Below the pieces are notes generated by a model. The model was given only the letters and a program-made list of their open reading frames with translations, did no database searches and had not been told where the DNA came from. Shown one piece after another: positions 4,210 to 18,918 of a DNA stretch of 64,000 bases (the stretch's first letter is position 1; each line of letters opens with the position of its first letter). Location of the stretch: contig ONVP01000002.1 in NCBI GenBank assembly GCA_900321315.1, positions 272-64,271 of the forward strand. The letters run 5' to 3'. The position numbers and the translations under genes are program-made. This DNA is from an uncultured Bacteroidales bacterium (GTDB taxonomy: Bacteria; Bacteroidota; Bacteroidia; Bacteroidales; F082).

Positions 4210-4231
4210 CAGCGTATTCGCGGACATCCTC

Positions 4232-4259
4232 AAAAGCCGTCCTTACGGGCGGCTTTTTT
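4232..4259 (+). terminator. Intrinsic terminator after paralogue 1
   Basis: aaaagccgtcc ttac gggcggctttt: 11-bp stem including one G-U, tetraloop, then a T-run. Confidence 0.7.
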
Positions 4260-4362
4260 AAGAGATTTCCGGGGCATGGTCAAGTAGGGTTCAAGTCTAT
4301 ACCAACTCCGAGTCAGGTTCGCAAAATCTAAACCAAGTATTAACCAATAAAAATTCTGAATT

Positions 4363-5037
4363 ATGGGAAAAATCAAACAGGGAATCTTAGGCGGATTCAA
4401 AGGAAAAGTGGGAACCGTAATAGGCTCCTCGTGGAACGGCATCGCCTACATGAAAGGCCTTCCGCAATCAGTCAGAAACTCGAAGTCTGCCGCTCAAATC
4501 AAGCAGCGCGACTTCTTCAAGGAGGTGCAGCAAATCGCTAGCCAACTCACTGCCGAGCAGCTTGCCTTCCTGTACCCGTCATCGCCCAAGGGCATGACAC
4601 GACGCAACGCCATCGTCCAGCAGCTTTCTGAAGACCCCATCGTTGAGGCCGACAGCAAACATGTGGACTTGGCAAACCTAAAAACCCTTGGCAACGCGCC
4701 AACGGCAGAGCTGCCAGAGGCATCCTTTTCCGTTGATGGCAACAACCTCGCCATCTCATGGAACGGCGCAAGCGGCTGGCGCACCGACCATGCCGATGAA
4801 TACCCTACCGTATTCGTGGCTAATGTCACCAAGAAAAGAGTGTTCCTCATCAACTCGCCTGTCGCCTTCGGCGCAGCTGGAGAATGGTCATTCATTGTCG
4901 GTCTGTCTGCCTACGGCGAAGCCTCCGACACCTTCAGCGGTTTTCTCCTTTCCACAGGCGCACAAACCGCACAAATCGGCTTCGGAACGATGGGCGTATG
5001 TGAACGCCCTGCCCGTCCACCCAAAAAGAACAACTAA
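4363..5037 (+). CDS. Uncharacterised protein, tandem paralogue 2 of 3
   Basis: Similar to paralogue 1 along its whole length (e.g. KHVDLAN..TLGNAPTA.LP, PTVFVANVTKK.V.L.NS.VAFG, GLSAYGEA.DTFSGFLLSTGA). C-terminal tail is ERPARPPKKNN. Confidence 0.8.
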   Translation: MGKIKQGILGGFKGKVGTVIGSSWNGIAYMKGLPQSVRNSKSAAQIKQRDFFKEVQQIASQLTAEQLAFLYPSSPKGMTRRNAIVQQLSEDPIVEADSKHVDLANLKTLGNAPTAELPEASFSVDGNNLAISWNGASGWRTDHADEYPTVFVANVTKKRVFLINSPVAFGAAGEWSFIVGLSAYGEASDTFSGFLLSTGAQTAQIGFGTMGVCERPARPPKKNN

Positions 5038-5064
5038 ATGTCTAACCCCTAAACAAGTAAAGCA

Positions 5065-5751
5065 ATGGGAAAAATCAAACAAGGAATCCTCGGCGGATTC
5101 AGAGGCAAAGTCGGTACAGTTATCGGCTCCTCATGGAATGGCATTTCTTACATGCGCGGTCAGGCGCAATCTGTCAGAAACGCCAACACACCTGCACAAC
5201 AGGCGCAACGCGCTTTCTTCAAACAAGTTCAGGAACTCACATCGCAACTCTCTGATGAGCAGCTTGCCATGCTGTTCCCGTCGGTCACACGCGGCATGAC
5301 GCGCCGCAACATGCTCACCCGTCAGCTTTCGGCTTGCCACGACTACGCTTCCGATGTCAAAACCTTCAATCTCTCCTTGCTGGAGGGCATCGGCAACGGT
5401 GAGCGCATCGATACGCCAATGCTGACCCTTACGGCTACCTCTATTGGCTCTCCGGCTAATCCAGTGACGGGCATCGTCATCGACCAGACTGTTGTCGCCT
5501 CAATCAACAAACCCGCTTCAGCTTGCTTCTCCGTTGTGGCCTACAACCTGACGCAAAAGAAGATAACCGTTTTCAACACGTCCTTTTCGGACTCCAACGC
5601 CAACCTGACCGTCGAAACAGGCAGCTTTGCCACCGATGGCGACAACATCCGCTGCTATTTGACCTATCAGTATCAGCGGAGAGGTGGTTTCGGCACATTG
5701 TCTATCGCAAATCGCCCTGAGCGCGACAAAGAGAAGAAAAAGAAATCCTAA
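5065..5751 (+). CDS. Uncharacterised protein, tandem paralogue 3 of 3 (divergent C-terminal half)
   Basis: The first ~95 aa align with paralogues 1 and 2 (MGKIKQGILGGFRGKVGTVIGSSWNGISYMRG...MTRRN). The rest is divergent. The tail GGFGTLSIANRPERDKEKKKKS retains the GFGT...RP.R motif. Confidence 0.8.
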   Translation: MGKIKQGILGGFRGKVGTVIGSSWNGISYMRGQAQSVRNANTPAQQAQRAFFKQVQELTSQLSDEQLAMLFPSVTRGMTRRNMLTRQLSACHDYASDVKTFNLSLLEGIGNGERIDTPMLTLTATSIGSPANPVTGIVIDQTVVASINKPASACFSVVAYNLTQKKITVFNTSFSDSNANLTVETGSFATDGDNIRCYLTYQYQRRGGFGTLSIANRPERDKEKKKKS

Positions 5752-6501: not shown

Positions 6502-6925
6502 CTGGCCGTCGCTCGATGGGCGGTATTTCGGCTCTGTTGTAGTGTAATTGTTTATCCAAAATAAGCCAAAGATTGCAGGGGTGCTTCAACCTTTTTTTGT
6601 TGAGCATTACGCAATCTTTGTCTTATTTCGGCTGTAAATTGGGTTGCGTTTTCCCGTTCTCGTTTCTCCGACATCCTCTATTTCCTCCATTTCCGCTTGG
6701 TCAATGAAAACGATTCGGAGGGCTGCCTGCCAGCCAAAGGATGCGGAGATGAGCAACACCTTCTTTATTAAGCTTATAGGCCGCATCCTTCGTCTGTCAG
6801 TCAGGTTCCCATTTTGCCCAAAACGGCGCAAATTATGGTCTTTATGGTTGTTTATCAAAAAGGATTTCGTATCTTTGCATCGCACTTATAATCAAGCATT
6901 TAAGCAGTCCAAATACTTATTTTTA

Positions 6926-6954
6926 ATTTGCAACATATTTGCAACATATCTTTG
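6926..6954 (+). promoter_or_regulatory. 11-bp tandem repeat (atttgcaacat x2 plus a partial) ending in a TATCTTTG -7 box
   Basis: atttgcaacat atttgcaacat atctttg read directly. TATCTTTG (6947-6954) matches TAnnTTTG. The palindrome attgat-t-atcaat follows at 6961-6973. Confidence 0.4.
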
Positions 6955-7027
6955 TATCTAATTGATTATCAATATATCTTAATTTTGAGGAGGTGAAGTA
7001 AGCACTTCTTAAATCACTATCAAAAAA

Positions 7028-7059
7028 GGTGTAATCCGAAAGGGTTACGCCTTTTTTTT
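7028..7059. terminator. Bidirectional-looking intrinsic terminator in a gene-free low-GC stretch
   Basis: ggtgtaatcc gaaa gggttacgcc: 10-bp stem (two G-U). It is flanked by an A6 run upstream and a T8 run downstream. Confidence 0.65.
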
Positions 7060-7321
7060 GTTTTTTCCTCTGATTGAACGGTGTAAGTATGTTGCTGGCA
7101 CTTTTTCCCCTCTCGGTTTTCTCAACGCACACAGGCAATGAAGCCGTCACCCCCGTTGTCAACCCAAGAAAAGGTCAGGTCGCTCCGCAAAGTTCCGCTC
7201 AGTACCTCTATCGTCCCCACCGCTACTCTAATTCAAGAATTTGTACAGCGGCTTCTCCGTAAACTCCGATTTATGTTCATCATTATTCTATGTTTTCTAT
7301 TGATACTTTCGGAATAAAACG

Positions 7322-7329
7322 TAAATTTG
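7322..7329 (+). promoter_or_regulatory. -7 box (TAAATTTG) upstream of the 737-aa ORF
   Basis: Matches TAnnTTTG and lies 80 nt upstream of the ATG at 7409. Confidence 0.4.
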
Positions 7330-7408
7330 CAACTTCACATTTTGTTTGTACAGAAATGGTGATACATGAATGAAATTATAAAATGACATAATTACACTTA
7401 ATTAAACT

Positions 7409-9622
7409 ATGCGAAATTTTGCTATCATTAAAGATTCCCAATATAGTGTTATAGATCAATACCGTCGCTATCTGAACTATGCTGTTAACCATCCTCTTTT
7501 AGATAGAGAGGATGCTGTTTATGATTATAATTTCATGCAGCAATTAGGAGTTCTTCAAGCTGACGAAATACAAAATGTCATCAAAACAAATGGTGATGTG
7601 CTGTATGAAGGAATCAAATACACCAATTCTAATATTCAAGAATTATCCTCTACTATTTCGCATAAAATGGATTATGTAGCCCAAGGCCTTACTTCATCAT
7701 TAGAAAAAGGTTTTACTCAAATGGAGATAGAACTTGGAAAAGCTAATCAGCAATTGTCTAATATCAATAGTAATTTAAGCGATATAGGAAATTCTGTCAC
7801 AAGAGGGTTTTCTGATTTGAGAGCAGGACAGATTCACACTCAAGAATTGTTAGAGGGTTTTAGAAAACAAGTTGGCAAATCTTTTGAATTTGTGATACAA
7901 AAGATTGAATTATCAAATATTTATTTAGCGGCAATCTACCAAGAGATGAAAATTCCAGAGTTCCAAAGAGAAAGACGGTATTATATGGAACAAGGAATAA
8001 AGTATATAAAAATAGCTATTAAAGAAAACGACAAGCTGTATTATGAAGATGCAGTTAATGCCTTTCAGAAAGCAATAGAAATATCACCAGATGATTATTT
8101 TTCATGGTTTTATCTTGGATACATATATCTTAACTCAACATATTTTCTTGATATAAATAAAGCCAAAGAATCATTTGAGCATTACATACACTATGTCCGT
8201 CCAGAAATCGAGTCAAGCAAACAAACTCGTTTAATACATCAATTAGATAGTGTGTATTTATATATGGCTGAAATCTCATATTTAAAAGGAGAGTTAGATG
8301 ATGCTGTCGAATGGACAAACAAATGTGCCCCTAATGAGAAGGTTATATTTTTGAAAGCTAAATATTTATCGGCATCAAGTGATAATTCTCATAAGTGTTA
8401 CATGGCTGCACAACTATTAAAAGAAGTCATTAGCAAAAACCCGTTTTTATCTTTGCAAGTGTTAGAAGATGCTGATTTAATTAGCAATGATAGTGTTATT
8501 ACTATGCTTAATCTATTAAAGAACGAAGCAGTTTCCCGTGCAAAAAGCATAGTTAATGGCATTAAGGCAAAATGTATGGAATATGACGGATTTAGTCAAG
8601 CATTTACTGAAGTATTAAAGATTGAGAAAAACTTACAATCCGAAACATATCTAGAAGCATGTGAAGCAATAAACATTCTTAATAAACGCATGAATTGGGT
8701 TATAAAAAACCATCAATTAAGTTTTACCTCCTCTATTGTCGATTATTGTAATAATTATATCTCTTGTCTTAACAATTTCGTCAATTCAAATAGCAACCTT
8801 CCTATTGGGATATGTGTAAAGTTCCTGAAAATATACGATAAAGTACTAATCATATTTAATGATACAGAAACTCAACGTTGCAAAGAAAAACTATTAAGTT
8901 GTTTCGATAATCTAAAATCCTCTATATTACGTAAATATACAGAGCAATATAATCGTGTTCAATATAGATTAAATGATTTAAAAGATTATACAACGGTTCT
9001 TATGTCTATGTTGTCAATTCTTGAACCATTGAATAAATATATTCCATATTCAGAATCAATTAATTATAAAAACTATAATACCGAAGATTGTGATTTAGAA
9101 ACGAAAACATTTGGCGTTCCAGCATATTTTCGGGATCGGTGCATATCTGCTTTTGAAAACTCAAAAACCAGATTGAGTATTGTTAAATTAGAAATAAATG
9201 CGTTAGTTGAGAAATCACAGTATTTTCAAAATATACTTCAGTTATTAAAATCATGCACATACTTAAATTGTAAATTAAGTTTGTTTTACGATGGACAGGA
9301 TGATACGATTATAGACAATAAAGTTGATGATTTTAATATAATCGAAACACTTACAAAAAAATACCTTGATTATGTAATAGCAATTAGCCATATACCCTCA
9401 TCTGTCCCAAAATATCCTGGCTTTGGCTTTTTAGTCCCTTTTCAATATGCAAGATGGATAGCTGTTTGCAATCGGGCAATGAACAATAACAGAGATTTAA
9501 TTTCTACAGCAAAAGCGGTTAATAAAAAAATGCATACTTTGTATAAGGATTTAAAGCAGCGCAATTTATTATTAACCAACCATATGCACATTCCTTGGTA
9601 TGGCCTCGACGATTGGAATTAG
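7409..9622 (+). CDS. Large orphan protein with N-terminal coiled-coil region and TPR-like repeats; no enzymatic motif recognised
   Basis: A 737-aa uninterrupted ORF in very AT-rich DNA. YYEDAVNAFQKAIEISPDDYFSWFYLGYIYL and ISYLKGELDDAVEWTNKC look like TPR units. The N-terminal 100-190 region is heptad-like. Confidence 0.7.
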   Translation: MRNFAIIKDSQYSVIDQYRRYLNYAVNHPLLDREDAVYDYNFMQQLGVLQADEIQNVIKTNGDVLYEGIKYTNSNIQELSSTISHKMDYVAQGLTSSLEKGFTQMEIELGKANQQLSNINSNLSDIGNSVTRGFSDLRAGQIHTQELLEGFRKQVGKSFEFVIQKIELSNIYLAAIYQEMKIPEFQRERRYYMEQGIKYIKIAIKENDKLYYEDAVNAFQKAIEISPDDYFSWFYLGYIYLNSTYFLDINKAKESFEHYIHYVRPEIESSKQTRLIHQLDSVYLYMAEISYLKGELDDAVEWTNKCAPNEKVIFLKAKYLSASSDNSHKCYMAAQLLKEVISKNPFLSLQVLEDADLISNDSVITMLNLLKNEAVSRAKSIVNGIKAKCMEYDGFSQAFTEVLKIEKNLQSETYLEACEAINILNKRMNWVIKNHQLSFTSSIVDYCNNYISCLNNFVNSNSNLPIGICVKFLKIYDKVLIIFNDTETQRCKEKLLSCFDNLKSSILRKYTEQYNRVQYRLNDLKDYTTVLMSMLSILEPLNKYIPYSESINYKNYNTEDCDLETKTFGVPAYFRDRCISAFENSKTRLSIVKLEINALVEKSQYFQNILQLLKSCTYLNCKLSLFYDGQDDTIIDNKVDDFNIIETLTKKYLDYVIAISHIPSSVPKYPGFGFLVPFQYARWIAVCNRAMNNNRDLISTAKAVNKKMHTLYKDLKQRNLLLTNHMHIPWYGLDDWN

Positions 9623-9643
9623 TTTAATCAATTAGTAAGATCC

Positions 9644-9718
9644 CTTCAGCCGCACATCAGCACCCTCACCAAAGCAAAAACCGTCCGCGCTTCGGCATTC
9701 ATTATCATGATGTTTTGG
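9644..9718 (-). pseudogene. Decayed 3'-end remnant of a small XRE-family HTH gene (repeat copy 1)
   Basis: The minus strand reads ...EARTVFALVRVLMCG*, which aligns to copy 2 (ARTVFALARALGCG...). The core ccaaagcaaaaaccgtccgcgc is identical. A 2-nt indel relative to copy 2 shifts the frame. Confidence 0.5.
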
Positions 9719-9840
9719 CAAGAGGCGAATTTCGTTCAATGAAGAATAAAACCGAAGCGTTATTATTTAGACTTTGTATAAATTAACCTATAAGTTTATT
9801 ATTTTGACAGTAATAGTAGCTTTATTTCAGAAATAAAGTC

Positions 9841-9848
9841 TATTTTTG
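9841..9848 (+). promoter_or_regulatory. -7 box (TATTTTTG) upstream of the HigB-like ORF
   Basis: Matches TAnnTTTG and lies 43 nt upstream of the TTG start at 9891. Confidence 0.45.
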
Positions 9849-9890
9849 CATCGTCAACCGACAAAAGTAAACCTGTAAGTTTATATCGAA

Positions 9891-10445
9891 TTGGAACTAA
9901 TAGCTATATATCCACCATACATCTACAGCGTTCAATATGATGATGTAGAGGAAAACGAATTCGACAGATTGTTCCAACAATGGAATGATTTGGAGTATGT
10001 GACGCAGTTCTTTGAAATTTTTCAAGATTATCTGAAATCCCCAGTTTGGCAAAAAACACCTGAGCCAGAAGATGCTACACTTCAAGTATTGCAAGAAGCT
10101 ACTGATTTAGAAGACCTTTTTGAAGAATTATACAATAACACCAAAAATAGTATTGTAGGAAAAGACTTTGATTCTCATTTTTATTATTTGGATGGAAAAT
10201 ATCAATTTGAGAAGGAACGACCTCCCATGAAATCTTATGGGACAAATCGACCTTCACTACTAAGGATATACGCCATAAAGATGAATACAAACACATACCT
10301 AATAACAGGAGGAGGAATAAAATTGGCTGATACGATACAGAACTCTCCAGATTTAAAAGAGCACGTTTTGAATAACATCGACAAAGTCAGGCAATTCCTC
10401 AAAGCAAATGGCATCATGGATAGTGATGATATGGAAAACAACTAA
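9891..10445 (+). CDS. Putative toxin: RelE/HigB (Gp49/DUF891-like) C-terminal region with a ~110-aa N-terminal extension
   Basis: SLLRIYAIKMNTNTYLITGGGIKLADTIQNSPDLKEHV resembles the RelE/Gp49 core strand-strand-helix. It is followed by an XRE gene in toxin-then-antitoxin order. Only a TTG start is available, because an in-frame stop lies at 9876-9878. Confidence 0.45.
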   Translation: MELIAIYPPYIYSVQYDDVEENEFDRLFQQWNDLEYVTQFFEIFQDYLKSPVWQKTPEPEDATLQVLQEATDLEDLFEELYNNTKNSIVGKDFDSHFYYLDGKYQFEKERPPMKSYGTNRPSLLRIYAIKMNTNTYLITGGGIKLADTIQNSPDLKEHVLNNIDKVRQFLKANGIMDSDDMENN

Positions 10446-10467
10446 TCAACTTAAACAATTTACAATT

Positions 10468-10899
10468 ATGGCATTTAACCCGGAAAAATTGGCCGCATTA
10501 GCCAAACCTCGCAGCGAAGAGGCAAGAGAAAAAGCACGAATCCGAAAGGAAAACCGTAACTGGTTGAGAATGTCCCAGGAAATAGCTCTCTGTCTGCATT
10601 ACTATCTTCGTAAGGCAGGGCTAACTCAAAAAGAGTTGGCAGATAAAATGGGGGTGTCGGCAGTATATGTTGGAAAACTTTTAAAAGGAGGGGAAAACAT
10701 GACCCTTGAAACCATCTGTAAGATTCAGAACGTAATTTGTGAAAACATAGTTGCTATAGCAAAACCGTATGTTAGCACTACAGTAATAAGTTTCCCTTTC
10801 CAGTATAGATTCTCACCCGATGCAATAACTAGCGAAAGATTCTCTGACAATCAATTATCACATGAAAATTATGTACCAATGGCTAACGATGCCGCCTAA
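10468..10899 (+). CDS. XRE-family HTH antitoxin (HigA-like) with a long C-terminal tail
   Basis: GLTQKELADKMGVSAVYVGKLLKGGENMTLETICKI is a canonical XRE HTH. I trimmed the start to the ATG at 10468. About 50 aa of aromatic-rich tail follow the HTH. Confidence 0.8.
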   Translation: MAFNPEKLAALAKPRSEEAREKARIRKENRNWLRMSQEIALCLHYYLRKAGLTQKELADKMGVSAVYVGKLLKGGENMTLETICKIQNVICENIVAIAKPYVSTTVISFPFQYRFSPDAITSERFSDNQLSHENYVPMANDAA

Positions 10900-10911
10900 A
10901 CACTTGAGACA

Positions 10912-11337
10912 ATGGAACCACAAGTAATGTATAGATTTAGCAAAATGGAACTTGAGCAATTTGCCATGTTTGAAGAGAATTGCAATCCAGAACCGAATGA
11001 AGTCCAATTTCATACCGAAGCGCAGTTTTCGTATGACAAAGATAATTACATACTTTGCAGTAAGATTATCGTTAACATGGCATCTCAGGAAAAGCCATTA
11101 GTAAAAGCTGAATTAAAAAGTTATTTCAACCTTTTGCCAGAGTCAGTTGAAAACTTGCGTAAGGACGGTCGTATCATGTTTGCTCCGCATTTGCTAGTCC
11201 AATTTGCATCTTTATGCTATGGCTCAATTCGTGGGGTAATCTTTGCAAAAACAATAGGCACACCTATTAATAATTACGTCTTGCCACCAGTGTATTTTGC
11301 GAATTTGATTGACAAGGGGTTTGTTGTTGAGGATTAA
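10912..11337 (+). CDS. SecB-like chaperone (third component of a TAC-type toxin-antitoxin-chaperone module)
   Basis: It is 141 aa. FAPHLLVQFASLCYGSIRGVIFAKTIGTPINNYVLPPVYFANLI parallels E. coli SecB [36 protein letters not shown]. The N-terminal and middle strands also line up. Confidence 0.55.
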   Translation: MEPQVMYRFSKMELEQFAMFEENCNPEPNEVQFHTEAQFSYDKDNYILCSKIIVNMASQEKPLVKAELKSYFNLLPESVENLRKDGRIMFAPHLLVQFASLCYGSIRGVIFAKTIGTPINNYVLPPVYFANLIDKGFVVED

Positions 11338-11399
11338 TGTTATCAGATGATTATAATAGCGCGATGCATAATTGTGTATCGCGCTATTTTTACTTTGTA

Positions 11400-11609
11400 T
11401 TACCCACAAATCACCTCAGCCCCACACCCCAGCGCCCTCGCCAAAGCAAAAACCGTCCGCGCCTTGGTTTTCATGATGTCTTGGTCGCCTTGCTCGTATG
11501 CCTGGATCATGCGAAGGGTGACGCCCGACAATTCGGCCAGTTCCTTTTGGGTGAAATGGGATTGCTTCCGAATGGTTTTCAGGGATAAAAAACAAAAAAG
11601 GTGTGCAAA
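11400..11609 (-). pseudogene. Near-complete small XRE-family HTH gene lacking a canonical start codon (repeat copy 2)
   Basis: The minus strand reads LSLKTIRKQSHFTQKELAELSGVTLRMIQAYEQGDQDIMKTKARTVFALARALGCGAEVICG*. The frame is open only to 11609, with no ATG/GTG/TTG before the HTH. It may still be expressed from CTG or be 5'-truncated. Confidence 0.55.
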
Positions 11610-11638
11610 TTAAAAAATAATGTGTATTTTTGCACACC
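11600..11638 (+). promoter_or_regulatory. Perfect 10-bp inverted repeat (ggtgtgcaaa / tttgcacacc) overlapping a TATTTTTG -7 box: candidate autoregulated promoter/operator
   Basis: The IR arms are 11600-11609 and 11629-11638. The -7 box is at 11625-11632, 38 nt upstream of the ATG at 11670. Confidence 0.5.
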
Positions 11639-11669
11639 AAATCAAGTCATCAATAAAAAGGGGGTAGTT

Positions 11670-12716
11670 ATGGAAAATGTTTTTGCACAGCGACTTATCA
11701 ATGCACGAAGGATTCGAGGGATTTCTCAAAGAGAACTTTGTGCACGGCTGGGTGGTCGGATTTCAAGTAATGCCATCGCCAAATACGAAACGGCGAAGAT
11801 GATTCCATCGAGCCAAAACCTGATTGCCATAGCTGAAGCTCTTGATTTTGGAATCGATTATTTCTTTAGACCATTCACCGTGAGCATTGATTACAATAGC
11901 TTCGAGTTCCGCAAACGGTCGAGCCTTCCCGCCAAAAAGGAAACGGCCATCAAAGAGCGCATCGCGTTGTTGATTGAAAAATATAGCGAAATAGAGAATA
12001 TTACACACGATGGAGTTCCGTTTAACCTTACTTATGACCAGGTGCTGTTGAGCAGTGACAACGACGCCCGATCGATCGGAGCACGCTTCCGTCAAGATCT
12101 TAACCTGGGTACCGACTGCATTTCCACGCCCATCGAAGTACTTGAAAACAGCGGAGTAAAAGTGATTGAGATTGACGCTGACAAGAAATTCGATGGTAGT
12201 TGTCTGAAAAACATAGAACTGCCAGTTATAGTCCTCAACAGGAACATCATTTCTGAACGCCGTCGCCTGACGCTTTTCCATGAGTTGGCGCATATAGTAT
12301 TGCGGTTCAACGAAGGAGCTGATGTGGAACGCTTGTGCAATATTTTTGCCAACGAAGTGCTTCTGCCATCAGCAGTGCTGAAATCGCTGTTAGGCGAACA
12401 TCGCAAAAGCCTCTCTTGGAAGGAGTTAAAACTGATACAAGAGAGTTATGGAATTTCGGTTGATGCCATCCTTGTGAAAGCCAAGCAAATAGGAATCATC
12501 AGTGAAGCATCGCACAGGTCTTTGTGCATCGAGCTAAATCGAAATCCTGAACTGAAACAGAGAGTGCAGGCAAGCGTATATCACAAAGAGGAATCGTCGC
12601 GTTTCGAACGATTGGTTTACAAGGCATTGTCCGACAACCTGATTACTTTATCGAAGGCTGCCGACCTGCTTGATTGTTCCGTTGACCAAGTGAATGCACA
12701 ACTGACATTAGCGTGA
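11670..12716 (+). CDS. XRE HTH fused to an ImmA/IrrE-family (COG2856) zinc metallopeptidase
   Basis: N-terminal RGISQRELCARLGGRISSNAIAKYETAKMIPS is an HTH. TLFHELAHIVL is the HEXXH motif, in the usual ImmA/IrrE context. Start trimmed to the ATG at 11670. Confidence 0.85.
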   Translation: MENVFAQRLINARRIRGISQRELCARLGGRISSNAIAKYETAKMIPSSQNLIAIAEALDFGIDYFFRPFTVSIDYNSFEFRKRSSLPAKKETAIKERIALLIEKYSEIENITHDGVPFNLTYDQVLLSSDNDARSIGARFRQDLNLGTDCISTPIEVLENSGVKVIEIDADKKFDGSCLKNIELPVIVLNRNIISERRRLTLFHELAHIVLRFNEGADVERLCNIFANEVLLPSAVLKSLLGEHRKSLSWKELKLIQESYGISVDAILVKAKQIGIISEASHRSLCIELNRNPELKQRVQASVYHKEESSRFERLVYKALSDNLITLSKAADLLDCSVDQVNAQLTLA

Positions 12717-12717
12717 T

Positions 12718-13233
12718 ATGGAGATAGTGGTCAACGATACGCAGGTGCTCATCGACATGTACGATGCTGATTTATTGGGACTGGTTGAACGTTGTTCTAT
12801 CAAGTTCCACACAGTAGATTACGTATTGGCAGAGTTGCACCGTTCGCCCTATAAGCGACCTGAAATTGACCAAATGGTAAAAGACGGTATACTGGAGGTC
12901 CATTCTTTTAGTGACAAGGAGAACGTTGATTTGGTGGCTTATTATGGTAAGATGGCCATGCAGACAAACCTTTCGTTAACGGATTGTGCAGTTTTGAAGT
13001 ACTCGAAAGACAACGGCTACCGACTGCTTACGGGCGACAAAAAGTTGCGTAATCACGCAGAAGATGAAGGTGTGCTGGTTTCTGGCATCCTTTATCTTGT
13101 TGACAAATTTGTTGCAGAACAATTGATTACGGGTACAGTCATGGCGGAACGATTAGAAATGCTGTTGAAAACAAATCCACGATTGCCAAAAACCATATTC
13201 GAGGAGCGGATTAAGTCACTACAGGGTTTATAA
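12718..13233 (+). CDS. PIN-like nuclease domain protein (DUF3368/DUF4411-type), partner of the ImmA/IrrE gene
   Basis: VVNDTQVLIDMYDADLL...VLAEL and LSLTDCAVLKYS...LLTGDKKLRNHAEDEGVLVSGILYLV fit the PIN acidic-residue pattern. Its start lies 2 nt after the upstream stop. Confidence 0.65.
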   Translation: MEIVVNDTQVLIDMYDADLLGLVERCSIKFHTVDYVLAELHRSPYKRPEIDQMVKDGILEVHSFSDKENVDLVAYYGKMAMQTNLSLTDCAVLKYSKDNGYRLLTGDKKLRNHAEDEGVLVSGILYLVDKFVAEQLITGTVMAERLEMLLKTNPRLPKTIFEERIKSLQGL

Positions 13234-13256
13234 TCGATGAAATCCTTTTGCATCAC

Positions 13257-13312
13257 TCAAAAATCACCTCCGCCGCACACTCCAGCACTCTCGCCAAGGC
13301 AAAAACCGTTTG
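13257..13312 (-). pseudogene. 3'-end remnant of the same XRE-family gene (repeat copy 3)
   Basis: The minus strand reads TVFALARVLECAAEVIFE*. By my count, 43 of the first 49 aligned nt are identical to copy 2 (11408-11456 vs 13261-13309). Confidence 0.55.
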
Positions 13313-13334
13313 TGTGTAGGTTTAGAAAAAACCT

Positions 13335-13342
13335 TACCTTTG
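13335..13342 (+). promoter_or_regulatory. -7 box (TACCTTTG) upstream of proline iminopeptidase
   Basis: Matches TAnnTTTG and lies 29 nt upstream of the ATG at 13371. Confidence 0.45.
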
Positions 13343-13370
13343 CCCCCGACAAACCAAACCTCATCAAACC

Positions 13371-14255
13371 ATGAATCAACATCCCATCCAAGAAGGATAC
13401 ATGCCCTATTTGGGCTATCAGACTTACTACCGCATTGTCGGTGAACCCTCAGACAAACCCGCATTGTTGCTGCTGCATGGCGGACCAGGCAGCACGCACA
13501 ACTATTTCGAGGTGTTGGACTGCATTGCCGAAACGGGCCGACAGGTGATTTCTTACGACCAAATTGGTTGCGGCAACTCCTATTTGGACGGCCATCCCGA
13601 GCTATGGACCCAGGAAACTTGGATCAACGAGCTCATCGCTTTGCGCGAACATCTGCACCTCGACCAAATCCACATCCTCGGTCAGTCGTGGGGTGCCATG
13701 CAGGCCATCGCCTATATCATTGACTGCCAGCCTAAAGGCATCAAGTCGGTGATTCTTTCTTCGGGCCATGCCTCCAGCTCGCTTTGGGCCAGTGAGCAAC
13801 ACCGCCTCATCAAGTACATGTCTAAAGAAGACCAAGAAGCCATCCGTCGCGCTGAGGCCACCGGCAAATGGGACGACCCCGACTATCTCCGCGCCAACGA
13901 GCATTATTTTGAGCGTTATGTCATCAGCATCGATGAGCACTCGCCCGAATGTCTCCGCCGACCTAAACGCGCGGGCAACGAAGCCTATCTCTACGGCTGG
14001 GGACCCAACGAATACCAACCCTTAGGCGACTTGGCCGATTTCGAATACACCGATCGTCTCGGTGAAATCAAGCAACCTTGTCTGATTTGCAGCGGCACCC
14101 GCGACATCTGCACCCCAGTGGTGGCCGCCTCGCTCTTTGAGAACATCCCCAACAGCCGCTGGGAAGTCTTCAAAGGCGCGCGCCACACCTGCTTCGTGGA
14201 ACAGACGGACAAGTATTGCGACATCCTTAGGCCTTGGTTGGAGGAACACGATTGA
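13371..14255 (+). CDS. pip: Proline iminopeptidase (alpha/beta hydrolase)
   Basis: LLLLHGGPGSTHNYF and the nucleophile elbow GQSWGAMQA are present. Length and layout are typical of PepI-type prolyl aminopeptidases. Confidence 0.85.
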   Translation: MNQHPIQEGYMPYLGYQTYYRIVGEPSDKPALLLLHGGPGSTHNYFEVLDCIAETGRQVISYDQIGCGNSYLDGHPELWTQETWINELIALREHLHLDQIHILGQSWGAMQAIAYIIDCQPKGIKSVILSSGHASSSLWASEQHRLIKYMSKEDQEAIRRAEATGKWDDPDYLRANEHYFERYVISIDEHSPECLRRPKRAGNEAYLYGWGPNEYQPLGDLADFEYTDRLGEIKQPCLICSGTRDICTPVVAASLFENIPNSRWEVFKGARHTCFVEQTDKYCDILRPWLEEHD

Positions 14256-14361
14256 GGAAGAAACCTACTTCATTTACAAAAACCACTTTATTCAGCCAAA
14301 ACACCACAAAAACACCCCGTTTTGGCTGAACAAAGTGCCTTATGTCACTCACAAATCACCC

Positions 14362-15683: not shown

Positions 15684-18600
15684 TTAATCCACCACAAATT
15701 TCCGCGTTGCGCCTGCAAAGGTAATGAAAAACATTCCACTATGCAAATCGGAAACATCAATTTGTTGGTTTTCGGCGGTGATGGTGCCTGACAGCAGGGT
15801 TTGGCCCATCAGGTTGGTGATGCGGTAGGTTGTTGCGGGTTGAGACGCAAAGCATTGCGTCTCTACGACGAGGATGCCGCTCGTTGGGTTGGGATAGATA
15901 GAGAATACACCATCAGACAGTTCGTCTATGCCATCATGCAATTCCTGATACACCTCGTCGCAATCCCTGTCGCCGCGCTTGAACACCAGTTCGCCCTCGC
16001 GCCAATGGCAGCGGATGCCTTCTATGCGGAAATTCTTGCTGCGCGTCATCAGCCGTTCGGGGAAGAAACTGGTCATGTGGCCGATGCCGCTCATGATGGT
16101 GCCGCTGAATAGGTCGCCTTCGTCGCTCACTTGCAGCATTCTGTAGGTTGTGCCTTCGTATTCGTATTGCTCCACCGTATCCACGTGCATGGTGAGGCTT
16201 TGCTCGCCCACCCTAATGACCCATTCATCACCGATTTGGGCGCCAAAGTCATAGAGCATGGTGAAATCCTGAAGGGTTTCGTTCCACCAATACACCTTGC
16301 CGAAGCTCTCGTAGATGTATTCTCGGGTCATTTCTCTGTGTCGGCCCTTGTCGTAGAGCGTGTTCGTGCGAATGATGATTTTCACGTCCTTGTTATTGAC
16401 GGTCGTGTCGGCGGCATACTCCAAATGCTGATAGGTGATACTGCCGTTGTCGTTGAGGATTTCGTAGTACCATTCCGTTCCAACGAAAGGATAGCTGACC
16501 TCAATTTCGCCAAACACAGGGAAGCCGTCGTTGATATTGTCATTGTCATATTCCCAACGCTGAACCATAGCAGGTTCCGTAGGATATTGCTCCGCCAAGG
16601 CTTCCGCTCCATAGTTCAAGGCCTCCAAAAGGTCGGTGGTGCCGTATTGTGGTTCGTTGAGTTGCCATTTGGTGGAAGTCATGCCCGAATGGAACGCTGA
16701 AGAGCCATGTAATTCCGGCTCATTCACATGGCCGCAAGCTGGCAGGTCGTTGTCGAGCCAATAGGCATTAAGGTAATGGCAACCTTCAATGCCGTAACCG
16801 ATGATGTTGCCGTAGCCCACCAACACATCCGGAAAAGCGGACAAATCAGGGCCTGAAACGGCACCCGTGTTATAGACATTATAAATGCGAGAATCGGGCG
16901 TGCCAGCAATGCCACCCGCAAACAACCAACCCACATCGTCGGCAGACTCGTCCAATGCCGTGTTCACATTGCCCCGATTGAAACAATTGGCAATAGTTCC
17001 CAAACTATTGCCCGTGATCCCACCTGCCGCGCCCGAATACTTAACGGTTGCCGTGACATTACCTTTGTTGAAGCAACGGATGATGTTGGAAGCGTATGCA
17101 CCAACTATGCCACCAACCAAAGTACCAGAAGTGGTGTTGTGACCTGTAACCCTACCATAATTCTCACAATCTATCACATCAAGATGCGGATTGCTGATCC
17201 ATTCCGAGGGAGACCGCCCGACAATGCCGCCGCAAGCATACTCACCCACAATCTCACCGTAATCGGAATAATGGAAGTCTCCATTAGTGCATTGCGACAC
17301 AGTAACGTGTTCAGCTTCACCCACAATGCCTCCCACACCATAAGTATCAGCGCCTATCACCTTGTATTGATTCTTACAATCCGTAATGGAACCGTTGATC
17401 ATTCGTCCGACAATACCTCCAGCCGCAGATTCACTTTGGATGCAGAAGGCTTGGTAGTACTGAAGTGTAGAGCAATTGGAAATCTCGCAAGGCGCTTGCG
17501 AAAGCGAATAGTCCTTATTGGCTTCCCCAACGATGCCACCAGCAGCCCATGAACCTTTTACCGTCACTGCCTGTCGCACAGAGCAGTTCATGATGTGAAT
17601 GGTCTGTTCGCTCACGCCATGGCTGCCAAACGGCATTCCCACGTAGCCAATCAAGCCGCCAGCCACGCCGTCCCATTTTTCTGTCTTGATGGAAGACGCA
17701 AAGCTGATGCTGCAGTTGGAAATGTCGGTCAAGCCCGCATGACCCACCAAGCCGCCCACATATTTCCCTTGGCCACTGACATGACAAAAGATCATACTCA
17801 CATTGCTGATTTCGGCGCCGTTGGTGCAACCGAACAAGCCGCCCACTGGCTCAAACCAACCGTTATCGATGATTTGACACAAATCATAAATGGAATGTCC
17901 CTGCCCGTCGAAATGGCCAGTGAAAAAACGGGGAACCGTGTCCAATACTCCTCCATTGGCTGTTATGACGGGCATACCGATGGGAGTCCATTCCACCGAA
18001 GCGTTGCCTGGGCAGTTTCCAAGGCTTAGGTCTTTGGTGAGGACATAATAGGCATCGCCGCCCGTGCCGTTGTTGGTTTCATAGGCGAGCAAGGCCAGTT
18101 GTTCCGAAGTGGCAATCTGATAGGGATTTTCGGCAGTGCCATCGCCGCCAGCGTAGGCTTCGGCCACGGTGCCGTCCCAGCAATAGCCGTATTCGTCGCA
18201 ATCATATTCCCCTTCGTGGTAAAGCATCTCACCATCAACGAGATAGCAGCGCAGGTAATCCGGATACGTACCATCATAAACATCCCCTACGCAAGCGTAT
18301 GGATAAGGGAACAATCCATCTACACTTCCTATGCCCTCAATGATGCGACCGTAGTAAAAGTAAAAGAACTCGTCTTCTATCGGGGCAATATTTTGCACCC
18401 GATAGGTGCGGCCTTCCCATGTCACCTCCTCAATGGATTGCACCGTGACCTCAAACGAGCAGGAATCAATGTCGCAAATCCATGTGTCGCCCACTTCGGC
18501 GTCAAAATCGTAAAGCGTGGTGAAGGCCTGCAAGGTTTGGTTGTACCAATACACTTTGCCGTTATCCTCATAGACAAACTGTTTGTCGCCGTTGCCTCCC

Positions 18601-18809
18601 AAATAATGCCGTGTGATGACGCTGCATGTGTGCCCTTGGATGAGGGTGTCGCCTTCCACAGCCATCCGATAGAAAGACGAAGGACTACCCATGAAAGAGC
18701 TGAGGTTGAAGTACCACTCCGCGCCTTGTGGAGCGAAACTGCCTGGCTGCGCCACGCCGCCGAGGGCGAAGGCGATCAGGATTGCTGTTGTTAATAATGT
18801 CTTTTTCAT
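15684..18809 (-). CDS. T9SS-secreted surface protein with GLUG-motif repeats
   Basis: It has a signal peptide (MKKTLLTTAILIAFALGGVAQ). There are many GGLVG/GGIVG/GGLIG GLUG-type repeats. The C-terminal FSIYPNPTSGILVV...GMFFITFAGATRKFVVD is a T9SS sorting domain. Confidence 0.85.
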   Translation of the reverse strand: MKKTLLTTAILIAFALGGVAQPGSFAPQGAEWYFNLSSFMGSPSSFYRMAVEGDTLIQGHTCSVITRHYLGGNGDKQFVYEDNGKVYWYNQTLQAFTTLYDFDAEVGDTWICDIDSCSFEVTVQSIEEVTWEGRTYRVQNIAPIEDEFFYFYYGRIIEGIGSVDGLFPYPYACVGDVYDGTYPDYLRCYLVDGEMLYHEGEYDCDEYGYCWDGTVAEAYAGGDGTAENPYQIATSEQLALLAYETNNGTGGDAYYVLTKDLSLGNCPGNASVEWTPIGMPVITANGGVLDTVPRFFTGHFDGQGHSIYDLCQIIDNGWFEPVGGLFGCTNGAEISNVSMIFCHVSGQGKYVGGLVGHAGLTDISNCSISFASSIKTEKWDGVAGGLIGYVGMPFGSHGVSEQTIHIMNCSVRQAVTVKGSWAAGGIVGEANKDYSLSQAPCEISNCSTLQYYQAFCIQSESAAGGIVGRMINGSITDCKNQYKVIGADTYGVGGIVGEAEHVTVSQCTNGDFHYSDYGEIVGEYACGGIVGRSPSEWISNPHLDVIDCENYGRVTGHNTTSGTLVGGIVGAYASNIIRCFNKGNVTATVKYSGAAGGITGNSLGTIANCFNRGNVNTALDESADDVGWLFAGGIAGTPDSRIYNVYNTGAVSGPDLSAFPDVLVGYGNIIGYGIEGCHYLNAYWLDNDLPACGHVNEPELHGSSAFHSGMTSTKWQLNEPQYGTTDLLEALNYGAEALAEQYPTEPAMVQRWEYDNDNINDGFPVFGEIEVSYPFVGTEWYYEILNDNGSITYQHLEYAADTTVNNKDVKIIIRTNTLYDKGRHREMTREYIYESFGKVYWWNETLQDFTMLYDFGAQIGDEWVIRVGEQSLTMHVDTVEQYEYEGTTYRMLQVSDEGDLFSGTIMSGIGHMTSFFPERLMTRSKNFRIEGIRCHWREGELVFKRGDRDCDEVYQELHDGIDELSDGVFSIYPNPTSGILVVETQCFASQPATTYRITNLMGQTLLSGTITAENQQIDVSDLHSGMFFITFAGATRKFVVD

Positions 18810-18851
18810 TGTTTTAAATATTTGATTATTAATTATTTAATTTCTCTTTTT

Positions 18852-18918
18852 AGCTATTAGCTTTTAGCCGTTAGCAGCGTCAAAGCCGCTAATAGCTAAC
18901 AGCTAAAGGCTAATAGCT
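18852..18918. terminator. Long inverted repeat (24-nt arms, 2 mismatches) downstream of the TPR/HTH regulator
   Basis: agctattagcttttagccgttagc (18852-18875) pairs with gctaacagctaaaggctaatagct (18895-18918). An inner agcg/cgct stem is also present. Confidence 0.55.

What the first reader, a model, noticed from the sequence alone, without database searches (positions are those of the whole stretch)
9644..13312. Cargo modules separated by three decayed copies of the same XRE-gene 3' end: serial insertion hotspot or cassette-like array
Three minus-strand segments are homologous: 9644-9718, 11400-11609 and 13257-13312. All contain GCCAA(A/G)GCAAAAACCGT and encode ...TVFAL(A/V)R(A/V)L.C... followed by a stop. 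This is the C-terminus of a small XRE HTH protein.

Copy 2 is nearly full length but lacks a start codon. Copy 1 carries a 2-nt indel. Copy 3 keeps only about 18 codons. By my count, copies 2 and 3 are identical at 43 of 49 aligned nt.

Each copy sits immediately downstream of a different cargo module: the 737-aa orphan, the three-gene TAC-like module, and the ImmA/IrrE-PIN pair. The last copy abuts the native pip promoter.

This pattern suggests repeated insertion at, or recombination through, one short target, with each event leaving a remnant. No integrase or transposase is present in the island.

A much weaker possible fourth relic lies at about 1210-1250. It has ttacccaca ... gcaaaaacc in the same order but closer together. 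If real, it would bracket the whole 1.2-13.3 kb region.
Basis: partly seen in the sequence, partly recalled or inferred. Interest (0 to 1): 0.75.

Follow-up and report, generated by a model that had tools for sequence, protein, structure and literature searches.

The report
Defence cassettes separated by gene-tail stubs
Three decaying copies of the tail of one regulator gene mark where anti-phage and toxin-antitoxin cassettes were stacked in a rumen Bacteroidales genome, apparently by ordinary recombination and not by an integrase.

Summary
The three copies are real (nhmmer E 5.5e-13, 2.8e-64, 4.2e-16). The parent is not a small XRE gene. It is a 215-aa gene (unknown N-domain plus C-terminal HTH_3) in an operon with a DUF3990 gene (PADLOC PDC-M42), divergent from pip.

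They also hold a nearly empty site and about 20 arrays with other defence cargo between fragments of the same gene.

Fragment 5' limits vary from 19 to 186 on the 242-position nhmmer profile, where the stop codon is at about 199-201. All lie in the last ~190 nt. The 3' limit is the stop codon. No integrase was found in any array.

In the window:
- Copy 3 is what remains of the resident gene after the operon was deleted.
- Copy 2 belongs to a RosmerTA-like ImmA-PIN cassette that has the same junction in eight loci. It is a mosaic.
- Copy 1 belongs to the three-gene cassette. L169 has that cassette without ImmA-PIN.

A fourth piece lies at 14288-14360, not at 1210-1250.

Best reading: integrase-free stacking and shuffling by illegitimate plus homologous recombination. 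This resembles 3'-displacement arrays at rhs/T6SS loci. It is a new variant of a known kind.

The parts
6982..7068 (+). Left edge of the island: last ~6 codons of dnaK (..FEEVK*) plus the dnaK terminator, without dnaK itself
   Evidence: 84-95% identity to the dnaK 3' flank of L005/L006/L089/L090/L091/L147/L149. tblastn finds no dnaK in the window. The window left of 7077 is syntenic with L126.
7409..9622 (+). 737-aa TPR-containing orphan cargo gene, tail-to-tail with copy 1
   Evidence: Only weak TPR hits in Pfam; no NCBIfam or PADLOC hit. GC is 27-33% against ~50% in the flanks. In L169 two other genes (370 and 131 aa) occupy this position.
9638..9718 (-). Copy 1: fragment of the 215-aa HTH gene (profile 117-193), frameshifted, with its last ~20 nt replaced
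   Evidence: nhmmer E 5.5e-13; translation QNIMIMNAEARTVFALVRVLMCG*. The orthologous fragment in L169-L173 (profile 118-222) keeps the tail.
9763..11338 (+). Three-gene cassette: 184-aa toxin-like gene (9891-10445), HTH_3 antitoxin-like gene (10468-10899) and a 141-aa third gene (10912-11337). It has its own TAnnTTTG promoter near 9838-9850. A terminator hairpin follows at 11352-11390.
   Evidence: PADLOC PDC-M64A/B/C hits; HTH_3 1e-08. The same 1576-nt core is 87.6% identical in L161-L168 in another context without HTH-gene fragments, and 95.6% identical in L169.
11390..11582 (-). Copy 2: fragment covering the whole HTH domain (profile 19-211). It has no start codon and is a mosaic of an ImmA-linked 5' part and a three-gene-cassette-linked tail.
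   Evidence: nhmmer E 2.8e-64; HTH_3 1.6e-11. The same junction to the ImmA promoter occurs in L011, L084, L092, L099, L146, L147 and L155. Segment identities switch partner near profile position 172. Orthologous fragments carry frameshifts or stops.
11583..11669 (.). Junction plus promoter/operator region of the ImmA-like gene: perfect 10-nt inverted repeat GGTGTGCAAA (11600-11609) / TTTGCACACC (11629-11638) and a TATTTTTG -7 box
   Evidence: Read from the sequence; conserved in eight loci.
11670..13233 (+). ImmA/IrrE-type HTH-metallopeptidase (11670-12716) and a PIN-like gene (12718-13233): a RosmerTA-like cassette
   Evidence: Peptidase_M78 1.1e-11 and HTH_3 1.8e-11; PIN weak at 0.0053. PADLOC RmrA 9.3e-44 and PDC-S70 1.1e-06. 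89-92% nt identity to the unit in L011, L092, L099, L146 and L155.
13224..13317 (-). Copy 3: stump of the resident gene (profile 137-231; coding part 13253-13317), fused about 35 nt upstream of the pip -7 box
   Evidence: nhmmer E 4.2e-16; translation ..TVFALARVLECAAEVIFE*. In L092 the same PIN flank abuts an intact 215-aa gene followed by DUF3990 and pip. Independent stumps next to pip occur in L169 (105) and L011 (163).
13335..14255 (+). pip (proline iminopeptidase-like alpha/beta hydrolase) with its promoter. Here it is bracketed by HTH-gene-derived sequence on both sides.
   Evidence: Abhydrolase_1 5.6e-25; 88-92% nt identity to pip of L083, L086 and L169 from 13335 onward.
14288..14360 (-). 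Fourth piece: last 16 nt of the HTH gene plus its stop (14345-14360) and the gene's native downstream hairpin (14288-14335). It serves as the pip terminator and abuts the stop of the 402-aa OMP-like gene.
   Evidence: Exact match to TYACYCAMAAATCACC: 3 hits against 0.29 expected. It is the fourth-best nhmmer hit in the window. The hairpin is 91-93% identical to the flank of the intact gene in L004, L007, L097 and L100, E down to 6e-13. The fold gives -18.9 kcal/mol, z -7.5.

Best explanation
The repeats are 5'-truncated, decaying fragments of the 3' end of one gene. That gene encodes a 215-aa protein with an unknown N-domain and a C-terminal XRE-type HTH. It overlaps a DUF3990 gene in a toxin-antitoxin-like operon (PADLOC candidate PDC-M42). 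In related rumen Bacteroidales the operon sits divergently next to pip.

The DNA between this gene's stop codon and dnaK is a defence-gene hotspot. New cassettes come to lie directly after the stop codon. A rare illegitimate junction then leaves a fragment of at most ~190 nt on the far side of the cassette. The junction forms either at the moment of entry, displacing the old 3' end downstream, or when a duplicated copy is later trimmed.

From then on the cassette has homology to the same gene on both sides. Ordinary double-crossover homologous recombination can place it in front of whatever a recipient already carries. The left arm is pip, the operon or the gene body. The right arm is the fragment. 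Cassettes therefore stack, swap and drop out without an integrase.

In this window the order of events was probably:
1. The TPR gene was present.
2. The three-gene cassette arrived with copy 1.
3. The ImmA-PIN cassette arrived with the 5' part of copy 2.
4. DUF3990 and most of the resident gene were deleted, leaving copy 3 against the pip promoter.

Shown: homology, junctions, alternative states, mosaicism, decay, and absence of recombinase genes. Inferred: the recombination pathway and the order of events.
For: 1. Parent gene and empty-like states.
- The intact 215-aa gene plus DUF3990 lies next to pip in L002-L007, L018 and more than 40 metagenome loci.
- L093, L094 and L096 have only 260 nt between its stop and dnaK.

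2. Array geometry.
- About 20 contigs hold two or more pieces.
- Where an intact copy is present, it is the one nearest pip, and the fragments lie between it and dnaK.

3. Cargo.
- It includes AAA_14/DUF4143 ATPases, type I/IIG restriction-modification, AbiC, AbiD, SMODS+SLATT, helicase+DUF2726, Fic, GIY-YIG and RosmerTA-like genes.
- The only mobility genes seen are one IS630-type and one DDE_Tnp_1 transposase.
- No integrase was seen. The flanks are housekeeping genes.

4. Junctions.
- About 20 distinct 5' limits occur (profile 19-186).
- Their partners are unrelated: cassette promoters, the stop codon of an AAA_14 gene, and the gene's own downstream flank.
- The fragments have no hairpin (z 0.39, -0.73, 0.93).

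5. Mobility of one unit.
- ImmA-PIN with the identical junction sits in eight loci.
- It lies behind an intact gene (L092) or behind fragments starting at 113, 123 or 137.
- Seven different things follow it.

6. Same downstream flank on an intact or resident gene in one genome and on the ImmA-linked fragment in another: L087/L146, L004/L011 and L169/window.

7. Crossovers inside fragments.
- Window copy 2 is closest to ImmA-linked fragments over profile 19-171 (40/43, 40/43, 31/37, 29/30).
- Over the last 30 nt plus 60 nt of flank it is closest to L169 (27/30, 58/60).
- L146 and L147 share a frameshift but differ in the tail and in the next cargo.

8. Divergence.
- Copies within the window differ by 18-25%.
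- Orthologous fragments and cassettes in other genomes are 92-96% identical. The copies therefore came from different lineages.

9. Deletion origin of copy 3. L169 keeps the DUF3990 promoter and about 12 codons fused to position 105. No DUF3990 is found in the window.
Against: - No recombination event is observed directly. Everything rests on comparing assemblies, mostly MAGs and metagenome contigs, in which repeats could in principle cause chimeras.
- Three regularities are not explained by random illegitimate recombination. (a) All ~20 junctions fall in the last ~190 nt of a ~1.3-kb operon and none in the N-domain or DUF3990; this holds even for the four independent operon deletions at 27, 105, 137 and 163. 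(b) Homology between copies stops within 0-6 nt of the stop codon in more than 15 different contexts. (c) Several 3' breakpoints cluster at profile 168-183, near GCTGGGGTG. These could point to a site-directed process.
- A tyrosine-integrase element occupies the same intergenic region beside the dnaK terminator in L161/L177 and L176.
- The intermediate with a freshly displaced, still identical fragment was seen only as a near-identical tail in L007.
Confidence: 0.6

Rival explanations
1. Each cassette arrived together with its own complete DUF3990/HTH operon, for example by recombination through the 1.3-kb operon homology. The redundant operon copies were later deleted, each leaving a 3' stump. 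On this view all junctions are deletion scars and none is an insertion scar.
For: Deletion of the operon leaving exactly such a stump against the upstream gene's promoter happened independently at least four times: window 137, L169 105, L011 163 and L098 27. The junctions of ImmA-PIN, of the 331-aa cargo in L099/L151 and of the three-gene cassette also join a cassette promoter region to the stump. The same cargo carries stumps of different length: 39 in L151 and 113 in L099.
Against: No locus among about 180 has two DUF3990 genes or two intact 215-aa genes. No stump keeps any N-domain sequence. Only L169 keeps DUF3990 sequence, about 12 codons. The bias of deletion end points to the HTH region would still be unexplained. 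This differs from the best explanation only in when the junction forms.
Confidence: 0.2
2. The fragments are att sites. Cassettes would be integrase-less elements (CIME-like) that are inserted and excised at the 3' end of the HTH gene by a site-specific recombinase encoded elsewhere. This would resemble tandem islands at ssrA or ICE/CIME accretion.
For: The geometry matches elements that target the 3' end of a gene and carry a replacement copy of it. The intact gene lies at one end. Fragments have a cassette-specific 5' limit and a constant 3' limit at the gene end. Breakpoints cluster near profile 168-183. dnaK on the other side of the hotspot also has 3' duplicates (L091, window 6982-7068). 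A tyrosine-integrase element sits next to the dnaK terminator in L161/L177 and L176.
Against: No integrase was found in or beside about 35 arrays, and the flanks are housekeeping genes. The fragments have no inverted repeats or hairpin. No fixed core is shared as a boundary. Some cargo-linked fragments lack the tail entirely (L083, L007, L091, L100). The integrase element carries no fragment of the HTH gene in 16 kb. Crossover positions inferred from mosaics are not at one point.
Confidence: 0.12
3. In-situ tandem duplication: the 3' end of the resident gene with its adjacent DNA was duplicated repeatedly in this lineage, and the copies then diverged. No horizontal cassette movement was involved.
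For: Some junctions join the gene's own downstream flank to an internal position of the gene, as a tandem-duplication joint would: flank F to 79/81 in L007, L097 and L099, and the AAA_14 stop to 77/78. The L007 fragment tail is nearly identical to the resident gene.
Against: The cargo between copies is unrelated, not duplicated. Window copies differ by 18-25%, while the same fragments are 92-96% identical across genomes. The ImmA-PIN unit occurs in eight different array contexts.
Confidence: 0.05
4. The three segments are unrelated XRE-family genes or chance matches.
For: XRE HTH genes are very common near defence and TA modules. The three-gene cassette and ImmA each carry their own HTH_3.
Against: Nucleotide-level profile E-values of 1e-13 to 1e-64, and a shared 16-mer with 0.09 expected. 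The copies are 80-90% identical in DNA to the 215-aa gene of relatives.
Confidence: 0.01

Closest known systems
3'-(C-terminal) displacement arrays at rhs, CDI and T6SS effector-immunity loci (Jackson 2009 as cited in PMC5361080; Kirchberger et al. 2017, PMC5361080)
   Same: One intact gene lies at the upstream end, followed by a string of 5'-truncated 3' fragments of the same gene with horizontally acquired modules between them. New modules enter next to the intact gene and push older ones downstream. No dedicated recombinase is involved. Homology-facilitated illegitimate recombination plus ordinary homologous recombination was proposed as the mechanism.
   Different: There the displaced fragments are the variable toxin tips and travel with their immunity genes. 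Here the fragment is always the same conserved HTH-coding tail of a regulator or antitoxin-like gene. The cargo is unrelated defence or TA cassettes, mostly on the opposite strand and with their own promoters. The anchor operon itself can be lost, as in this window.
Tandem genomic islands at the 3' end of a target gene: ssrA islands of Dehalococcoides (PMC3146451) and ICE/IME/CIME accretion (PMC5704250)
   Same: Arrays of islands lie downstream of one gene, each bounded by a direct repeat of that gene's 3' end. Some islands lack recombination genes.
   Different: Those repeats have a fixed length (20 bp) and a defined insertion point, and many islands carry the integrase module. Here the fragment lengths range from 16 to ~190 nt with heterogeneous junctions, and no integrase is present.
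HGT hotspots without mobile-element genes, and core defence hotspots (Oliveira et al. 2017, PMC5635113; P. aeruginosa core defence hotspots, PMC10250203)
   Same: A variable defence-rich region lies between conserved housekeeping genes (pyrG-pip and dnaK-lysS) with no integrase. Turnover is attributed to double homologous recombination in the flanks.
   Different: Those descriptions invoke only the flanking core genes. Here internal copies of a flank-gene fragment subdivide the island into separately exchangeable cassettes.
Integron cassette arrays / CALINs
   Same: Short cargo units of ~1.7-1.9 kb are separated by a recurring sequence.
   Different: No attC-type hairpin and no IntI. The cassettes carry their own promoters. 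The recurring sequence is a gene fragment of variable length.

Membership tests
Integron / CALIN cassette array | Recurring attC sites that fold as imperfect hairpins in single-stranded form | tested here: not met
   DNA folds of the three copies are no better than shuffles (z 0.39, -0.73, 0.93). The repeat finder lists no inverted repeat within the repeat unit.
Integron / CALIN cassette array | Integron integrase nearby; mostly promoterless cassettes in one orientation | tested here: not met
   No integrase among island ORFs or in related arrays. Cassettes have their own TAnnTTTG promoters (sequence).
Site-specific tandem accretion (ICE/IME/CIME, ssrA islands) | Direct repeats of constant extent (att core) at every island boundary | tested here: not met
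   The 5' limits are at profile positions 19, 27, 39, 41, 77-90, 102-105, 113-123, 137, 144, 163 and 186. Several fragments also lack the tail.
Site-specific tandem accretion (ICE/IME/CIME, ssrA islands) | An integrase or recombination module in at least some islands of the array | tested here: not met
   None in about 35 arrays. The tyrosine-integrase element beside dnaK in L161/L177 and L176 carries no fragment of the HTH gene.
Site-specific tandem accretion (ICE/IME/CIME, ssrA islands) | Excision as a circle with recombination at the repeats | not testable with these tools
   Needs reads or PCR across predicted circle and empty-site junctions.
3'-displacement arrays (rhs/CDI/T6SS type) | An intact gene at the upstream end followed by 5'-truncated 3' fragments of the same gene | tested here: met
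   L006, L007, L083, L085, L086, L091, L092 and L095 have the intact gene nearest pip and the fragments towards dnaK.
3'-displacement arrays (rhs/CDI/T6SS type) | Modules between fragments are horizontally acquired and recur in other arrays | tested here: met
   ImmA-PIN with the same junction occurs in eight loci. The three-gene cassette occurs in L169-L173 and, without fragments, in L161-L168. AAA_14 cassettes recur.
3'-displacement arrays (rhs/CDI/T6SS type) | Displaced fragments encode variable toxin tips with cognate immunity genes | tested here: not met
   All fragments are the same HTH-coding tail and are decaying. The cargo is unrelated defence or TA genes.
Mobile-element-free HGT / core defence hotspot | Variable gene content between conserved core genes, without mobility genes | tested here: met
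   pyrG, M28 peptidase and pip lie on one side; dnaK, M23 peptidase and lysS on the other. Content differs in nearly every locus.
Mobile-element-free HGT / core defence hotspot | Enrichment for defence systems | tested here: met
   RM, Abi, CBASS-like SMODS+SLATT, RosmerTA-like, PDC-M64 and PDC-M42 hits.
Type II TA-like pair / PADLOC PDC-M42 (parent operon) | Two overlapping genes: a DUF3990 (ART-clan) protein and a partner with an HTH | tested here: met
   L004 9191-9871 is DUF3990 (1.6e-43) and PDC-M42A (1.7e-38). L004 8566-9213 has HTH_3 (1.6e-10) and PDC-M42B (2.8e-07). The genes overlap by 23 nt. The ART-clan link is from PMC7955679.
Type II TA-like pair / PADLOC PDC-M42 (parent operon) | Toxicity of one partner neutralised by the other | not testable with these tools
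   Needs expression experiments.
RosmerTA (ImmA-PIN cassette) | RmrA: HTH plus M78-type peptidase antitoxin | tested here: met
   PADLOC RmrA 9.3e-44 over residues 6-343; Pfam HTH_3 and Peptidase_M78.
RosmerTA (ImmA-PIN cassette) | A cognate RmrT toxin downstream | tested here: inconclusive
   The 171-aa partner gives only a weak PIN hit (0.0053) and PDC-S70 (1.1e-06).

The most novel reading that the evidence does not exclude
The gene-tail fragment is not just a scar. It would be a selected, functional tag: a recombination site or hotspot, for example Chi-like around GCTGGGGTG, or a site for a recombinase encoded elsewhere. The tag would make defence cassettes mobilisable into any genome that carries the DUF3990/HTH operon. 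This would be a cassette system comparable in logic to integrons but built on a toxin-antitoxin gene end. It would explain why all junctions lie in the last ~190 nt, why homology ends at the stop codon, and why breakpoints cluster.
Probability: 0.1. Interest if true: 0.85.

Novelty: new variant of a known kind. Interest (0 to 1): 0.5.

Why it matters
Many defence islands and HGT hotspots carry no integrase, and how they gain and reshuffle genes is still argued mainly from statistics on flanking core genes.

This locus gives a concrete, sequence-level picture. Fragments of one flanking gene subdivide the island into cassettes. Each cassette has homology to the same target on both sides. Ordinary recombination can therefore stack and exchange them one at a time.

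Alternative states are visible in related genomes:
- a nearly empty site (L093, L094, L096);
- a site with only the three-gene cassette (L169);
- sites that also hold ImmA-PIN.

The locus also gives a practical handle. The ~60-190-nt tail of the 215-aa gene can be used as a probe in rumen Bacteroidales metagenomes to collect cassettes. Several of these are unannotated and become candidate defence genes by position: the 737-aa TPR protein, the 370/131-aa pair in L169, and the 331-aa and 328-aa proteins of L099 and L146.

Last, the locus shows a candidate defence/TA pair (PDC-M42) acting as the anchor of an island and then being lost.

Tried and rejected
- Exact-sequence look-up of the window's pip protein, to find the same strain elsewhere: not on record.
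- pip-based synteny. pip orthologues in 80 species genomes sit in very different neighbourhoods. Only L002-L007, L011 and L018 were informative.
- Copy 2 as a functional stand-alone 64-aa HTH gene, suggested by the metagenome proteins MFLSLK.. and MCFLSLK... Rejected: a start codon is present only in some loci and depends on poly-T length. Orthologous copies carry frameshifts (L146, L147, L139) or a stop (L011).
- Integron attC reading. Rejected by the folds.
- DGR template/variable repeat reading. Dropped at the outset: no reverse transcriptase, and differences are not confined to adenines (alignments).
- CTnDOT-type GTANNTTTGC core at the gene tail or at the junction near profile position 102. 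The motif recalled from memory is present beside dnaK (GTATATTTGC in L161 and L176). The junctions do not fall where such a crossover would. Left as unproven.
- Extending the integrase-element contig to look for the HTH gene at its far end. 20 kb were read (L177). No fragment of the gene, no DUF3990 and no pip were found.
- The L093 'empty' site as a virgin target. Its intergenic region is 73% identical to the left end of the integrase element, up to the first gene's start codon. It is probably itself a deletion derivative.
- Similarity between the sequence upstream of the copy-2 junction and the gene's N-domain codons, suggested by MAFFT. Judged to be chance.

Full report
OBSERVATION

The three minus-strand segments are homologous well beyond chance.
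- The repeat finder returns them as one family: 9622-9698, 11394-11470 and 13247-13323, with spacing 1772 and 1853 nt.
- An nhmmer profile hits 9718-9638 (E 5.5e-13), 11582-11390 (E 2.8e-64) and 13317-13224 (E 4.2e-16). I built it from the last 66 codons, the stop and 40 nt of flank of 21 intact relatives.
- The shared 16-mer occurs three times against 0.09 expected.
- Copy 2 covers a whole HTH_3 domain (1.6e-11) but has no in-frame start codon.
- Promoters of the TAnnTTTG type and the best relatives place the window in rumen Bacteroidales (Candidatus Limimorpha / F082-like MAGs).
- The island is AT-rich: 27-39% GC from 6600 to 11400, against about 50% in the flanks.

THE PARENT GENE

A genome scan with pip gave 80 loci. 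In L002-L007 and L018 the sequence homologous to copy 2 is the C-terminal domain of an intact 215-aa gene. That gene overlaps a 226-aa DUF3990 gene by 23 nt, and the pair is divergent from pip.

PADLOC assigns the pair to candidate system PDC-M42 (A 1.7e-38; B 2.8e-07 on the N-domain). DUF3990 belongs to the ADP-ribosyltransferase clan according to PMC7955679.

THE HOTSPOT

A metagenome scan with the HTH alignment gave 80 more loci. The common layout is pyrG, pip, then DUF3990 and the 215-aa gene, then variable DNA, then dnaK, M23 peptidase and lysS.
- L093, L094 and L096 have only 260 nt between the gene's stop and dnaK.
- Elsewhere the gap holds AAA_14/DUF4143 ATPases of three kinds, type I and IIG restriction-modification genes, AbiC, AbiD, SMODS+SLATT, an SF1 helicase with DUF2726, HD-CE+HATPase, Fic, GIY-YIG, NYN, DUF3800, and the ImmA-PIN pair.
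- The only mobility genes seen are one IS630-type and one DDE_Tnp_1 transposase. No integrase was seen.

ARRAYS

About 20 contigs carry two or more pieces of the gene.
- Where an intact copy exists, it is the one nearest pip, and the fragments lie between it and dnaK.
- Fragment 5' limits fall at profile positions 19, 22, 27, 39, 41, 77-90, 102-105, 113-123, 137, 144, 163 and 186. All are inside the HTH-coding last ~190 nt.
- tblastn finds no N-domain or DUF3990 fragment in any array, apart from about 12 DUF3990 codons in L169.
- Homology between copies ends 0-6 nt after the stop codon in more than 15 different downstream contexts.

Junction partners are of two kinds:
- The promoter side of the neighbouring cassette. 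Examples are ImmA at 19; a 331-aa gene at 39 in L151 and 113 in L099/L146; pip at 137, 105 and 163; and pyrG at 27 in L098.
- Sequence that normally lies downstream of the gene. Examples are the stop codon of an AAA_14 gene at 77/78; the gene's own hairpin flank at 79/81; and a dnaK-proximal segment at about 102-108.

The fragments do not fold.

THE WINDOW'S PIECES

Copy 2.
- It is joined to the ImmA promoter region at exactly the same point in L011, L084, L092, L099, L146, L147 and L155.
- The ImmA-like protein is a RosmerTA RmrA homologue (9.3e-44). Its partner is weakly PIN-like.
- This unit sits behind an intact gene in L092, and behind fragments starting at 113 (L099, L146), 123 (L011) or 137 (window). 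Seven different neighbours follow it.
- The orthologous fragments are decaying, with frameshifts in L146, L147 and L139 and a stop in L011. A start codon appears only with some poly-T lengths.
- Window copy 2 is a mosaic. Positions 19-171 are closest to the ImmA-linked fragments of L146/L147. The last 30 nt and the next 60 nt are closest to L169.

Copy 1.
- Copy 1 and the three-gene cassette (PADLOC PDC-M64A/B/C) are 95.6% identical to L169-L171.
- There the layout is dnaK, two other genes, the copy-1 equivalent, the cassette, a stump of the resident gene, and pip. This is the window without ImmA-PIN.
- The same cassette core (9763-11338) also occurs without any fragment in L161-L168.

Copy 3.
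- It has the PIN flank that in L092 follows the intact gene. It is fused about 35 nt upstream of the pip -7 box.
- L169 shows the analogous stump fused to the first ~12 codons of DUF3990. L011 has one at 163.
- The window has no DUF3990. Copy 3 is therefore the remains of the resident gene after the operon was deleted.

A fourth piece.
- The last 16 nt of the gene plus its native hairpin flank lie at 14288-14360 and act as the pip terminator. pip is thus bracketed too.
- Nothing supports the relic at 1210-1250.

MECHANISM

- The same downstream flank is attached to an intact or resident gene in one genome and to the ImmA-linked fragment in another: L087/L146, L004/L011 and L169/window.
- L146 and L147 share a frameshift but diverge in the tail and the next cargo.
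- Copies within the window differ by 18-25%, while orthologous fragments are 92-96% identical between genomes.

The fragments therefore came in with their cassettes from different lineages, and crossovers occur inside them.

The simplest account has two steps.
1. A rare illegitimate junction leaves a 3' fragment beyond a cassette that lies directly after the stop codon. It forms either at entry, displacing the old 3' end, or by trimming a duplicated copy.
2. After that, ordinary double crossovers insert the cassette in front of whatever the recipient already has. The left arm is in pip, the operon or the gene body. The right arm is in the fragment.

This is the logic proposed for orphan 3' arrays at rhs, CDI and T6SS effector loci (PMC5361080). 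It also fits hotspots that lack mobile-element genes (PMC5635113). It differs from fixed-repeat, integrase-driven tandem islands such as the ssrA islands of Dehalococcoides (PMC3146451).

WHAT REMAINS UNEXPLAINED

- All junctions, including four independent operon deletions, lie in the last ~190 nt.
- Homology stops at the stop codon.
- Several 3' breakpoints cluster at profile 168-183, near GCTGGGGTG.
- dnaK on the other side shows the same habit. There is a 63-nt 3' duplicate bracketing AbiD in L091, a 920-nt one in L161, and the last six codons plus terminator at 6982-7068 in the window, which has no dnaK.
- A tyrosine-integrase element lies beside the dnaK terminator in L161/L177 and L176. 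It carries no fragment of the HTH gene in 16 kb.

For these reasons a site-directed process cannot be excluded. I give it about 0.1.

VERDICT

The details change:
- the parent is a 215-aa gene of a DUF3990 operon;
- fragment limits vary;
- copy 3 is a deletion stump;
- the extra relic is at 14288-14360.

This is a new variant of known displacement and hotspot architectures. It is of moderate interest.

Noticed in passing
window 14288-14360: The last 16 nt and stop of the HTH gene plus its native downstream hairpin (TTCAGCCAAAAC...GTTTTGGCTGAA) lie just after pip and 1 nt from the stop of the 402-aa OMP-like gene. pip therefore has fragments of the gene on both sides.
   Followed up: yes
window 6925-7068; L091 2445-2576; L161 2637-3553: dnaK, the other gene flanking the hotspot, also leaves 3' duplicates of variable length. 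The window has only its last ~6 codons plus terminator and no dnaK. These are preceded by a TTTGCAACATATTTGCAAC motif. In L161, L176 and L093 that motif lies between the dnaK terminator and an integrative element.
   Followed up: partly
L161/L174/L177 3765-18400; L176 461-14832: An integrative element sits directly after the dnaK terminator. It carries an HTH_17 gene, a 417-aa tyrosine integrase, a BT4734-like gene and a DUF3987 primase. Its cargo block is Dcm methylase, HATPase_c_3, Z1, DUF4420 and MTaX1. It holds no fragment of the HTH gene.
   Followed up: partly
window 11600-11638: A perfect 10-nt inverted repeat, GGTGTGCAAA / TTTGCACACC, spans the promoter of the ImmA-like gene and is conserved in eight loci. 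It is a likely operator for the protein's own N-terminal HTH.
   Followed up: no
window 3528-5751; L126 14491-16677: Three tandem paralogous genes (222-228 aa, 68-72% nt identity) lie in the left flank. L126 has the same triplet. Function was not looked at.
   Followed up: no
window 15684-19998: The 1041-aa GLUG/T9SS-tail protein gene and the next gene are 65-74% identical to DNA that lies immediately downstream of the 215-aa gene in another clade (L113, L118, L121, L122, L127, L148). There the orientation relative to the gene is opposite. This suggests a past rearrangement between two copies of the operon.
   Followed up: partly
profile positions 168-183 of the gene tail (window about 11418-11433, 13271-13286): Several independent 3' truncations and mosaic switch points fall within about 15 nt around GCTGGGGTG (L007, L011, L083/L151, L092/L155, L146 vs L147, window copies 1 and 2). 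This could be a recombination hotspot or could be chance.
   Followed up: partly
window 1400-2200: GC content reaches 62-67%, far above the ~50% of the surroundings. L126 has an 87% identical stretch.
   Followed up: no
L001-L080, around position 10001: pip orthologues (78-94% aa identity) sit in quite different neighbourhoods on both sides in most of 80 species genomes. Only one clade has the DUF3990/HTH operon beside pip.
   Followed up: partly
L097 669-781: A copy of the gene tail with an internal ~90-nt deletion (profile 53 joined to 144) lies next to a fragment that starts at position 20 and keeps about 11 nt of the ImmA-side junction but has lost ImmA-PIN. L139 has AbiD in that place.
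   Followed up: no
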